Source: the human T2T-CHM13v2.0 reference genome, Homo sapiens
Direction: 5' to 3' (one strand)
Length of the DNA: 64,000 nucleotides
NCBI RefSeq assembly: GCF_009914755.1
Contig: NC_060935.1
How positions within the stretch are numbered: position 1 is the stretch's first letter; the number at the start of each line of letters is the position of its first letter. A program made the translations under genes and the position numbers. Under the pieces are notes generated by a model, which had not been told where the DNA came from, ran no database searches, and was given only the letters and a program-made list of their open reading frames with translations. Positions 39,734-57,136 of this stretch are shown one piece after another.

Positions 39734-39944
39734 CACTGCCAGTAACTCCAACCGCAGCACGCCGGCCTGCTCGCCCATCCTCCGGAAGCGGTCTCGCTCG
39801 CCAACCCCGCAGAACCAGGACGGAGACACCATGGTGGAGAAGGGCTCAGATCACTCCTCGGACAAGTCCCCGTCCACACCGGAGCAGGGCGTGCAGCGCA
39901 GCTGCTCCTCCCAGTCCGGCCGGAGCGGCGGCAAGAATTCCAAG
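39734..39944 (+). CDS. GRAMD1B: GRAMD1B shared coding exon, 211 nt, phase 2 to phase 0: (x)TASNSNRSTPACSPILRKRSRSPTPQNQDGDTMVEKGSDHSSDKSPSTPEQGVQRSCSSQSGRSGGKNSK
   Basis: Pyrimidine tract plus CAG acceptor at 39731-39733 and AAG|GTGAGC donor at 39945. The translation matches the Aster-B N-terminal Ser-rich region as I recall it. The internal ATG at 39831 (accATGG, strong Kozak) can start an MVEKG... isoform. Confidence 0.95.
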
Positions 39945-40776
39945 GTGAGCGGGACCCCGTTGAGGCGGTACCTCCTTGTCAGGGGCTGCGGGGAGCGATA
40001 TTGGGGTGGTGAGCCGGAGAACATCTGCGAGGGTCCTCACGTGATGAACAGCCCTGATGGCTCAGAGACAGTCATTATCCAGTGAGGTGAGGCGGGGCAG
40101 GCAGGAGAGACCCTAGTTAAATATCTTCCCCGCTAAGCATTCTTGGTGGGCTGGGCGAGGTAGGGAGGCTCATATTTTTTTTTTTTAGATTTGGAGGGGA
40201 GACGCTCTGGGAATCATTAGGGGGTCATCTGCTTATTCCTGCTACCGTTTTCAAATTTGGTTCCTAGAGCCGGGGTAGAAGGCAACATTATTTGGGACAT
40301 TATACTGCTAGGGAGAGTCCTCAGGGAACCTTGCAGAATGCTATTTTTAACCTCCTCCCCGGCCATCCTTCCTGCCTTACCTTTGCACTAATCCACTTGG
40401 TACTCACCTGGCAGAGAGGAGGGTGGCAGGGCCTTTCCATCCTCCCAAGGATGTCAGGACTGCCCCCTGAGTACCGGGGCCCTTGGCCCATGGATATGCC
40501 TAAAATAGGCCCCAGGGGGGCCTGGGCTAATTATGGTTCCCCAGAGATGTCTTCCCCACCCTCGGTCCTTTGGGGAGCAGGAGATGTCTTTGCCCAGGGT
40601 CTCCTTCAGGAAACTTCTCTTCACCCTGGGACCCCCAGGGCCTGGGAAGGGGTTGGGGACCCCTGGGAGGCATGGGAGCTGGCTTCCCACTTGAATTTGT
40701 CTTTTGATTTCTTGTTCTTCCTCTCCTCTTCTTCCCCACCATTTCCCAAATACCTTCTTTGCATGCATGGTCTTAG

Positions 40777-40797
40777 TCTCACAAGCGCCTCTCAAAA
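40777..40797 (+). CDS. GRAMD1B: GRAMD1B alternative 21-nt microexon, SHKRLSK (phase 0/0)
   Basis: ttctttgcatgcatggtcttAG|TCT CAC AAG CGC CTC TCA AAA|GTAAGC. It is frame-preserving and matches a 7-aa insert I recall from a longer GRAMD1B isoform. Confidence 0.8.
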
Positions 40798-43085: not shown

Positions 43086-43120
43086 CTGTAGTGACAGCCT
43101 GTGGCCACCAGAGGGAGCGA
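43086..43120 (+). promoter_or_regulatory. Candidate CTCF site with upstream motif
   Basis: Core TGGCCACCAGAGGGAGCGA at 43102-43120, preceded by CTGTAGTGAC, in a CpG-rich patch. Confidence 0.65.
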
Positions 43121-43312
43121 GGGGCCGTTCTGCCGCTCTCCCACCTGCCCTGAGGGCGCTATGCAGCAGGTGCGGCAAAGCGCGCCTCCTCCCGCCCTGC
43201 TGCACACCTCCCCACCGCGGTGCGGGCATCGCGCTGGCGCTGTGGCACTGACCCTTCTTTGACTTTCCTTTTTTTTTTTTTTCAAATCTAATTTTTGTGG
43301 TTTTCTTTCCAG

Positions 43313-43336
43313 TATGACAGACTTAACCTGATCAAA
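43313..43336 (+). CDS. GRAMD1B: Candidate GRAMD1B 24-nt microexon, YDRLNLIK (phase 0/0)
   Basis: Long T-rich tract (43250-43310) with a CTAAT branch-like motif, then ttttctttccAG|TAT GAC AGA CTT AAC CTG ATC AAA|GTAAGA. In frame with the flanking exons and has no stop. Confidence 0.7.
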
Positions 43337-45350
43337 GTAAGAATTGTTTTTTATTTCTAACTCCTACTAAATGTAGAGCTCTCCTAGTCCCTGCCCCCCT
43401 ACCTCCTCCACACCCCGCACCTTACTTAATCTTCCAGACTCCCGGAGCCTTCGCGGTGGGAGATGTTTCTGGAAACCACCTCCCAGTAACCTGGGTCTGT
43501 TTCCAGGGGCCTTGCATTCCTTTAAGTGCTTGCTCTTCAGACCTTCTAGGAAAAATGATAGAAACGAGCATGTCCCCAACAGCTGTGTCTTTGTCCTGAC
43601 TCCCTTCTTCCTCTTTGGCCAAATCCATGTGTTTATAAGCTGTCAGAGAAGGCTCCACTGCTGCTCCCTGGTTCTGTGCCTTCCTTCCCTCTGGCCTGGT
43701 CCTCCAGGTAGGGGCGCTACAGCAAACTAAAGCCAGAGGATGAGGGACGCCCCTTCTCACCCCCAGAGGCCGGCAGCTCCTCTGACTTCCCTGCCCCTGT
43801 GGGTCTGGGTCCTTCCCGTCTGGCAGAGCCTTTGGGACTCATTTCCGGGAATGCAGAACCACGGGGATTGAATGTGCCTCTGGGCAGAGTTCAGGGACCC
43901 CTGCCCACAGTGGACAGGCTCGGGGGCTGCTTTGGACGTGGCTGGAGGGGGGACCCATTTTTCCTGTGGCCCCTCAGTGGCAGCAGGTAAGAAGCTGCCT
44001 GGAGATTGCTGGTTCAGGGCAGAGCCTCAGCACAGTCCTACTCCTTGGTATGTTTCACGTTTCTTTTCAGTTCTTTAGTACATGTTCTTACCCACGCTTT
44101 ACAAAAGAGCAAACATTAGATATAAGAGCATCACAGATCAGGTTAAAGACAGGACTGGCTTCCCTGCCTGAGGCTGTGTGTGACCCTCACACTTTGTTCC
44201 ACATAGATTTGGAAGGCACAAGCGCCGATGTGCCAGCCCATGCAAAGGGACCATCTGCTTCTGTCTACCTGGGGCAGGAGGGAGCCCCGTGCAGGAGGAG
44301 TCACAGGCATCCGGGGTCCCCCTGTCAGCCCATGTTCCTGTTGCCCCCTTTCCTCCCAGCGTCTTACACGAAGGTCACGGCATTGAGACGAGGAGCTGGG
44401 AGCTTGGGAGATGGTTTCTCCGTTGTAAAGCAGGGATCTCGTGACCTGGGTTGCATTTGAGGAAGCACAAGGAGACTGTGGGGCTGCTGGGGCCGGCAGC
44501 TCCCAGAGCGCACCTTCCTACTGCTGGGAGGTGTCTTTTGTAATGAACATCTGCACAGCCTCTTGCCCTGTGGGCTTCGGATCAGGGCTTCTGTGTGAGG
44601 ACGCAGGAAGTGAGCCATCCCTAGGCGCAGACGCCAGACGCAGCCTGCTTGCCCCATCCACCCCCTCCAGAAGGGGGTAGCCTTGGCTGCAATGCCTAGA
44701 GGCGAGTTTTCAGGTCCCGGACTCCCATGTGGCCGCACCTTTGTCAGGAAAAAATAGTTTTTAATATTTGGATTTGGGCCCTTTACCTGCTGAGACCTCT
44801 GAATTGGAGGTGGGGATGAGGCTAAGATGGGAGGGTGTGGCCTCTGGATGGACCGTGGTGACAGGTTGGGAAGTGACCCTGGAGAGCACCTTGCAGAGGG
44901 GGACTGGGAGCCTTGCTACTGGCCTCTAGTCACATCCTGGCCATCGAGGGCATGTGTGAGGACGAAGCTGCTCAGAAGCAGCCCCACCCACGCGAGGCCC
45001 CTCAGCCCCCTCCAGCTCCTCTGTGGACTGGTTTCACTGTGGGGGGTGAAGGTGGACCGTCTTTACAGAGTTCAGGTGGAATGGGGGAGATAGATCACAT
45101 GGCCACTGGTCATCACCGCGGGCACACACCCACCCTTGTGCGTAGTCGCTTCCTTCCCTCTAGACACAGCAGACATTCGAGGACCATGGCTACTCTTGTC
45201 TGCCCTTCTGGGTTGGGACGCTTTAACACCAGGTGGAGGGGATCCAGACCTCTGGGTGGAGCTAAGGTATTGATCTGTGAGCAAAGCTCCCCCACCCAGC
45301 GATCCCTAAAACTGAAAATAATCTAAGCTCCACCGAGAGATGGAGCTTAG

Positions 45351-46678: not shown

Positions 46679-46699
46679 AAAAGCCAGAGTTGGTATAAT
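46679..46699 (+). CDS. GRAMD1B: GRAMD1B 21-nt microexon, KSQSWYN (phase 0/0)
   Basis: ttcattttctcttttcAG|AAA AGC CAG AGT TGG TAT AAT|GTAAGT. It supplies the ...NSK-KSQSWYN-VLSPTY... junction of Aster-B. Confidence 0.92.
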
Positions 46700-57051: not shown

Positions 57052-57136
57052 GTGTTAAGCCCCACCTACAAGCAGAGAAATGAAGACTTCAGAAAGCTCT
57101 TTAAGCAGCTTCCAGACACGGAGCGCCTCATTGTTG
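57052..57136 (+). CDS. GRAMD1B: GRAMD1B exon, start of GRAM domain: VLSPTYKQRNEDFRKLFKQLPDTERLIV(D), phase 0 to 1
   Basis: Perfect TACTAAC branch point at 57026-57032, CAG acceptor at 57049-57051, TTG|GTGAGT donor; typical GRAM-domain N-terminal motif. Confidence 0.96.

What the first reader, a model, noticed from the sequence alone, without database searches (positions are those of the whole stretch)
43250..43345. YDRLNLIK: 24-nt candidate microexon invisible to the ORF track
Seen: an unusually long U-rich acceptor tract, a branch-like CTAAT, an AG acceptor, 8 sense codons and an AAA|GTAAGA donor. It does not appear in the Aster-B sequence I recall, so it may be rarely annotated. Inference: a tissue-restricted exon adding an amphipathic-looking peptide.
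Basis: partly seen in the sequence, partly recalled or inferred. Interest (0 to 1): 0.7.

Follow-up and report, generated by a model that had tools for sequence, protein, structure and literature searches.

The report
Ancient photoreceptor microexon in GRAMD1B
A 24-base exon missing from the human RefSeq annotation of the cholesterol transporter GRAMD1B encodes eight amino acids found letter for letter in shark, fish and monkey protein models, and its mouse counterpart is spliced in mainly when photoreceptors are present, so it likely gives light-sensing cells their own form of the protein, predicted to bind membranes differently.

Summary
The exon is real. Window 43313-43336 is a 24-nt, phase-0 cassette (YDRLNLIK) between the 21-nt SHKRLSK and KSQSWYN exons of GRAMD1B/Aster-B. 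The peptide occurs in 90 of 327 listed vertebrate GRAMD1B protein models: 86 identical, 88 joined to KSQSWYN, from sharks and rays, teleosts, a gecko, rodents, rabbit, bovids and monkeys. The mouse orthologue (mm10 chr9:40330584-40330608) is already in a 2016 supplementary table: PSI 0.71-0.84 in wild-type retina, 0.06-0.21 in photoreceptor-less retina. Its neighbour SHKRLSK is a listed human retina microexon. So this is likely a photoreceptor microexon pair. The human exon is absent from RefSeq, and I saw no human reads. The 'amphipathic' idea is not supported. The insert is predicted coil and lands in a family-wide basic-plus-tryptophan arm just before the GRAM domain; it most likely tunes membrane engagement (untested). 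Overlapping YxxL and DxxxLI sorting-like motifs are the bolder alternative. Verdict: new member of a known kind, modest interest.

The parts
43313..43336 (+). 24-nt phase-0 microexon encoding YDRLNLIK (T2T chr11:123609313-123609336; estimated hg38 about 123580946-123580969)
   Evidence: conservation; mouse reads
43181..43312 (+). AG-free zone (130 nt) with U-rich tract (T14 at 43269-43282) and acceptor AG; no UGC in -30..-3
43248..43292 (+). three branch-point-like motifs: CTGAC (A at 43251, -62), TTGAC (A at 43262, -51), CTAAT (A at 43291, -22); which is used is untested
43337..43342 (+). 5' splice site gtaaga, followed by a U-rich stretch and two UAG triplets at about +38 and +49 (no enrichment test run)
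40777..40797 (+). partner microexon SHKRLSK (21 nt), inferred to be the listed human retina microexon HsaEX6005337; two overlapping TGCATG (RBFOX-type) motifs at -17 and -13
46679..46699 (+). near-constitutive microexon KSQSWYN (21 nt), the core of the conserved basic-Trp arm; downstream partner of the new exon
39734..39944 (+). upstream 211-nt coding exon ending ...GKNSK in phase 0
57052..57136 (+). exon starting VLSPTYK, leading into the GRAM domain
   Evidence: hub table

Best explanation
Window 43313-43336 is an in-frame 24-nt microexon of GRAMD1B that is near-invariant across jawed vertebrates and photoreceptor-dependent in mouse, and it is likely spliced in, mostly together with SHKRLSK, in human photoreceptors, where the pair is predicted to lengthen the basic/aromatic arm in front of the GRAM domain and so likely retunes how Aster-B engages cholesterol- and PS-rich membranes. 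Shown: anatomy, frame, conservation, mouse inclusion. Inferred: human inclusion (about 0.85); co-inclusion with SHKRLSK; a switch by loss of repressors (RBFOX upstream of SHKRLSK, U-tract binders upstream of YDRLNLIK) rather than by Musashi or SRRM4 alone (about 0.5); the membrane-tuning role (about 0.45; direction unknown). The insert falls between K78 and K79 of the 738-aa numbering. Both exons together raise the net charge of the GKNSK..WYN stretch from +3 to +7 and add five hydrophobic residues in the 20 residues before the tryptophan.
For: 90 of 327 listed proteins carry the 8-mer, 86 identical, and 88 of 90 are followed by KSQSWYN; they include Scyliorhinus, Hemitrygon, Chiloscyllium, Anguilla, many teleosts, Heteronotia and monkeys. 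PMC4991804 S3 Table: a 24-nt exon between two 21-nt exons, with introns of 761/2054/3146 nt against human 832/2515/3342; inclusion reads 136,130,115,124; PSI 0.71,0.84,0.81,0.80 against 0.08,0.15,0.06,0.21 in Aipl1-/-; dPSI 0.666, FDR 0. The downstream mouse exon's printed sequence encodes KSQSWYN, which anchors orthology. The exon is not among the mouse microexon tables of PMC7821500. The neighbour has PSI 61.8 in human retina, 0.17 in other tissues and 1.12 in neural tissue, and a 21-nt chicken GRAMD1B exon is also listed. 69 of 90 models pair the two exons. 74 of 80 family representatives have at least 3 K/R in the 8 residues before the conserved Trp, against 6% of upstream windows. GRAMD1B protein is reported in human rods and cones (PMC9169810).
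Against: No human spliced read was seen. The exon is absent from 46 human RefSeq transcripts (hub table), from the retina-microexon lists in files 1-12 of 18 of PMC9303857 and from the searched part of a human-brain circRNA list. 0 of 10 ape- or human-named rows carry it, though none carries SHKRLSK either. Eleven primate models and two bovid models have it without SHKRLSK, so it may be used independently and outside the retina. The protein hits are gene models, some possibly projected between species. The insert lowers K/R directly before the Trp from 3 to 2. The 82-548 construct that revealed 'other' anionic-lipid residues starts after the lysines, so that result does not implicate this arm directly. 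Aster-B protein was not detected by western blot in mouse retina. Near-invariance of the sequence suits a specific protein partner at least as well as a membrane arm.
Confidence: 0.75

Rival explanations
1. The 8-mer is a sorting or protein-binding motif: overlapping YxxL and acidic dileucine (DxxxLI) signals would recruit an adaptor and redirect photoreceptor Aster-B to a special compartment such as the ciliary base or outer segment.
For: Both patterns match only when the exon is included (patterns recalled). Both together arise in 1.6% of permutations of the 8-mer; the dileucine pattern occurs in 0.8% of background 8-mers. The three observed kinds of substitution (R3K, N5K, N5Y) spare Y, D, L4, L6 and I7. 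Antibody signal in human outer segments (PMC9169810) is unexpected for an ER-anchored protein (own knowledge). Predicted disorder.
Against: Short motifs match often and five patterns were tried. Polar positions are the most mutable anyway. Adaptor-type signals normally act on cargo in endocytic or Golgi membranes, not on ER residents (own knowledge). No binding test was run.
Confidence: 0.25
2. The insert creates a MAPK-type docking site (K..K-x3-L-x-L) about ten residues before the conserved S-P of VLSPTY, which would give kinase control of the GRAM arm in photoreceptors.
For: The recalled docking pattern matches only the forms with YDRLNLIK; SHKRLSK adds a K-R-x-S kinase motif.
Against: Low-specificity pattern from recall; no phosphorylation data seen; the serine before the proline varies in distant family members.
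Confidence: 0.1
3. The exon is real but not photoreceptor-specific in primates: it is included at low to moderate levels in brain or other tissues independently of SHKRLSK.
For: All 11 'YDRLNLIK alone' rows are primates; goat and buffalo rows are also alone; residual PSI is 0.06-0.21 without photoreceptors; it is not in the human retina-microexon list.
Against: The neighbour shows the same residual (0.05-0.19) yet has neural PSI about 1 in human; not detected in the mouse microexon tables of PMC7821500.
Confidence: 0.2
4. The exon is silent or decaying in humans and apes, though active in other vertebrates.
For: Absent from human RefSeq although SHKRLSK is annotated; 0 of 10 ape/human rows.
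Against: The human peptide equals the shark and fish peptide, and both splice sites are intact and rank 6 of 13291. A run of seven A at the junction with the next exon makes alignment ambiguous (mouse shows a 1-nt-shifted twin), which could help explain missed annotation.
Confidence: 0.1
5. A chance AG..GT pair beside a poly-T run.
For: 12 T-runs of 12 or more occur in the window, and an unsupported decoy scores higher.
Against: Same peptide at the same protein position in sharks to monkeys; more than 100 inclusion reads per mouse replicate.
Confidence: 0.01

Closest known systems
Retina-enriched microexons (RetMICs, PMC9303857), including GRAMD1B HsaEX6005337
   Same: 3-27 nt, frame-preserving, conserved in vertebrates, lost from Aipl1-/- retina in mouse; lies 2.5 kb from a listed member in the same gene.
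   Different: Not itself in the lists I could see; has no UGC before the acceptor; human PSI unknown.
Photoreceptor 'switch-like' exons (PMC4991804)
   Same: The mouse orthologue is a significant row of that paper's S3 Table (row 25; dPSI 0.666).
   Different: Not named in the main text (0 occurrences in the listing); no function, conservation or human annotation given in what I read.
SRRM3/4-dependent neural microexons, e.g. the 12-nt GRAMD1B exon HsaEX0028506/DreEX0035920
   Same: Size class, frame, long AG-free pyrimidine-rich upstream region.
   Different: No upstream UGC here; the neighbour shows dPSI 0 on SRRM4 expression in four human lines; the 12-nt exon lies outside this window.
GRAM domain of Aster-B as PS/cholesterol detector (PMC7957428)
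   Same: Same protein; the insert lies 13 residues before the studied domain (92-207).
   Different: The constructs described in the passages I read start at residue 82 or 92, so neither microexon nor the lysines before them were tested there.

Membership tests
Conserved vertebrate microexon | 3-27 nt internal exon with AG/GT sites | tested here: met
   24 nt, AG|...|GT
Conserved vertebrate microexon | Frame-preserving, stop-free | tested here: met
   phase 0/0, YDRLNLIK; 88 of 90 models joined to KSQSWYN
Conserved vertebrate microexon | Deep conservation | tested here: met
   86 of 90 identical, sharks to monkeys; protein level only, no genomic alignment
Conserved vertebrate microexon | Spliced reads in human | not testable with these tools
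   no RNA-seq access; mouse orthologue has junction and exon reads
Retina/photoreceptor microexon (RetMIC) | Inclusion falls by more than 15 PSI when photoreceptors are lost | tested here: met
   mouse orthologue dPSI 0.666, read from PMC4991804 S3 Table
Retina/photoreceptor microexon (RetMIC) | Retina-specific inclusion across human tissues | not testable with these tools
   not in the lists of files 1-12 of 18; only the neighbour is
SRRM3/4-activated microexon | UGC shortly upstream of the 3' splice site | tested here: not met
   none in -30..-3
SRRM3/4-activated microexon | Response to SRRM3/4 | tested here: inconclusive
   no row for this exon; neighbour dPSI 0 in 4 lines, NA in the others and for SRRM3
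Musashi-activated photoreceptor exon | Cluster of three or more UAG in the downstream intron | tested here: not met
   two UAG (+38, +49) in +7..+200; criterion
Musashi-activated photoreceptor exon | Loss in Msi1/Msi2 knockout | tested here: inconclusive
   exon not found in the searched tables (one file cut, one unreadable); neighbour unchanged, dPSI 0.011, FDR 1
Amphipathic helix insert | High helical hydrophobic moment or predicted helix | tested here: not met

The most novel reading that the evidence does not exclude
Since the origin of jawed vertebrates, photoreceptors have made their own Aster-B by adding two stacked microexons; the invariant YDRLNLI is a sorting or partner-binding signal that sends this ER-type sterol/carotenoid transporter to the ciliary or outer-segment compartment, setting disc cholesterol or macular pigment delivery. 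The human exon is unannotated, so variants in it would be missed in retinal-disease sequencing.
Probability: 0.2. Interest if true: 0.75.

Novelty: new member of a known kind. Interest (0 to 1): 0.42.

Why it matters
It adds a missing coding exon to human GRAMD1B, conserved from sharks to primates, and defines a likely photoreceptor isoform of the cholesterol/carotenoid transporter that the constructs described in PMC7957428 do not include. It gives a direct test of whether the conserved basic-Trp arm ahead of the GRAM domain sets membrane binding or location, and flags 24 coding bases that RefSeq-based variant filters would treat as deep intronic. It is not a new kind of system: photoreceptor microexons are well described, the mouse exon is in a 2016 table and other species' models contain it.

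Tried and rejected
Amphipathic helix: rejected. Musashi as the main switch: disfavoured. SRRM4 sufficiency: disfavoured. A human counterpart of the fish/shark/gecko exon HERQHILR: best + strand score in the window 27 of 44, outside the right intron and without splice sites, so not found. The 9-nt WQQ candidate: no support in the vertebrate proteins at this position. The 50%-identity representatives hold the 8-mer in 0 of 150, as expected when one isoform stands for a cluster. No solved structure covers the region: 9 PDB matches, all to the StART-like or GRAM core. Full-text searches found no paper for GRAMD1B+microexon, YDRLNLIK or GRAMD1B+retina+long-read+isoform, and 20, 13, 4 and 25 listed papers whose titles and abstract openings do not describe this exon; subscription papers are not covered. 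No complex prediction was sent: candidate human partners are not available to that tool.

Full report
Observation. The window shows an acceptor AG at 43311-43312, a 24-nt exon 43313-43336 and the donor AAA|gtaaga; it reads YDRLNLIK. The upstream 211-nt exon ends ...GKNSK in phase 0 and the two flanking 21-nt exons are phase 0, so all combinations keep the frame. The upstream intron has a 130-nt AG-free zone, 25 T in 37 nt and a T14 run; there are three branch-like motifs at -62, -51 and -22 and no UGC in -30..-3. With a rough matrix of recalled frequencies the pair ranks 6 of 13291 AG..GT pairs; the annotated KSQSWYN ranks 1, SHKRLSK 352 and an unsupported 9-nt candidate 2. The anatomy is therefore suggestive, not sufficient.

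Conservation. Three protein searches listed the best 120 of 1039, 783 and 854 hits, giving 327 distinct proteins. The 8-mer is in 30 of 120 mammalian, 39 of 120 teleost and 21 of 87 further rows: 86 are YDRLNLIK, 2 YDRLYLIK (goat, buffalo), 1 YDKLNLIK (guinea pig) and 1 YDRLKLIK (rabbit). 88 of 90 continue into KSQSWYN; the other two are Ensembl-type models that seem to read from the exon's last lysine into the intron. 69 of 90 are preceded by SHKRLSK. Carriers include catshark, stingray, bamboo shark, eel, many teleosts, a gecko, ground squirrel and six monkey genera. None of 10 ape/human rows, none of 11 bichir rows and not the single amphibian row carries it; no listed row was named as a bird. 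The ape rows also lack SHKRLSK, so their silence says little. These are gene models, clustered at 90%, so human isoforms could be hidden inside clusters.

Expression. PMC4991804 (seen: abstract, sections 7, 9 and 27, and seven S3 Table rows; the file was cut when stored) lists mouse Gramd1b chr9:40330584-40330608, 24 nt, between 21-nt exons at 40332662-683 and 40327417-438 and below a 211-nt exon. Intron sizes are 761/2054/3146 against 832/2515/3342 in human, and PMC7821500 (supplement rows only) prints the sequence of the downstream exon, which encodes KSQSWYN and is classed as included everywhere. Inclusion is 0.71-0.84 in wild-type retina and 0.06-0.21 in Aipl1-/- retina, dPSI 0.666, FDR 0; the 21-nt upstream neighbour behaves alike (dPSI 0.717). 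Neither optional exon's coordinate is in the tables of PMC7821500. PMC9303857 (passages; supplement files 1-12 of 18) lists a human 21-nt GRAMD1B exon, hg38 chr11:123578410-430, with PSI 61.8 in retina, 0.17 elsewhere and 1.12 in neural tissue, and a 21-nt chicken exon. I infer this is SHKRLSK, as KSQSWYN is near-constitutive. The same exon, not the 24-nt one, is in the searched part of a human-brain circRNA list (PMC8355340, supplement rows). I saw no human reads for the 24-nt exon, and the hub's RefSeq table lacks it. Both optional exons end in A's and the next exon starts AAAAG; the mouse table shows a 1-nt-shifted twin, so misalignment may contribute to under-annotation (inference).

Regulation (inferred). 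The neighbour is unchanged in Msi1/Msi2 double-knockout retina (dPSI 0.011; PMC9509328, passages and supplement rows) and unresponsive to SRRM4 in four human lines. The 24-nt exon has two downstream UAG, short of the three-motif clusters, and no UGC. The neighbour has two overlapping RBFOX-type motifs at its acceptor. PMC9303857 proposes that Nova, Rbfox and Elavl repress such exons outside photoreceptors, and PMC6952364 (passages) points to PTBP1 loss. De-repression is thus my preferred switch, about 0.5. Extended pyrimidine tracts are described for neural microexons in PMC12871342 (passages).

Protein. The insert falls between K78 and K79 of the numbering used in PMC7957428 (K161, G187, R189 and R191 match), 13 residues before the GRAM construct 92-207 and 3 before the 82-548 construct (passages). 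Among 150 family representatives, 89 have the anchor with enough upstream sequence, 80 of these have a Trp just before it, and 74 of 80 have at least 3 K/R in the 8 residues before that Trp, against 6% of 465 windows further upstream. Such a basic-plus-aromatic arm is typical of membrane-binding tails (own knowledge). Both exons raise the local net charge from +3 to +7 and hydrophobic residues from 0 to 5, but YDRLNLIK lowers K/R next to the Trp from 3 to 2, so the direction of any effect is open. AlphaFold2 on a 100-sequence alignment gives coil at pLDDT about 40-50 for residues 171-200, with the folded GRAM starting after 200. The 8-mer is not amphipathic. Of five recalled patterns it matches YxxL, DxxxLI, a MAPK docking pattern and RxxL; the first two co-occur in 1.6% of permutations. 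PMC9169810 (passages) reports strong Aster-B staining in human rod and cone outer segments and three bands in retina, but no detectable protein in mouse retina. PMC10259818 (passages) gave background only; PMC12626424 (supplement rows) lists only a different 12-nt gramd1ba microexon.

Novelty. Searches returned no paper; searches listed none describing this exon in title or abstract opening. The mouse exon is in a 2016 table and many species' models have it, so this is a new member, for human annotation and function, of the known class of photoreceptor microexons. Real exon about 0.97; used in human photoreceptors about 0.85; membrane tuning about 0.45; sorting or partner motif about 0.25. Interest 0.42.

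Noticed in passing
window 43978-43986 +: A 9-nt phase-0 candidate (WQQ) with a strong donor ranks 2 of 13291 AG..GT pairs but appears at this position in none of the vertebrate proteins; probably a decoy.
   Followed up: partly
between window 46699 and 57052: Sharks, gar, eels, teleosts and a gecko have a fourth microexon (HERQHILR/HIMR/HLLR/QIRR) after KSQSWYN; no match in the human window and none in the mammalian rows, so it was likely lost in mammals. It would split the conserved WYN-VLSP motif.
   Followed up: partly
window 46679-46699: The near-constitutive KSQSWYN exon is itself a 21-nt microexon carrying the family-wide Trp motif; mouse data class it as always included and missing from VastDB. 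Two gorilla and several fish models skip it.
   Followed up: partly
window 40760-40776: Two overlapping TGCATG motifs sit in the acceptor of the retina microexon SHKRLSK, whose acceptor scores poorly: a likely RBFOX repression site.
   Followed up: partly
outside the window, 3' part of GRAMD1B: A 12-nt neural microexon (HsaEX0028506; DreEX0035920; probably mm10 chr9:40300439-451) is srrm3-dependent in zebrafish eyes, so the gene carries at least four microexons in mammals.
   Followed up: no
window 43100-43247: A G+C- and CpG-rich patch with many YGCY (MBNL-type) motifs lies directly upstream of the U-rich tract; role unknown.
   Followed up: no
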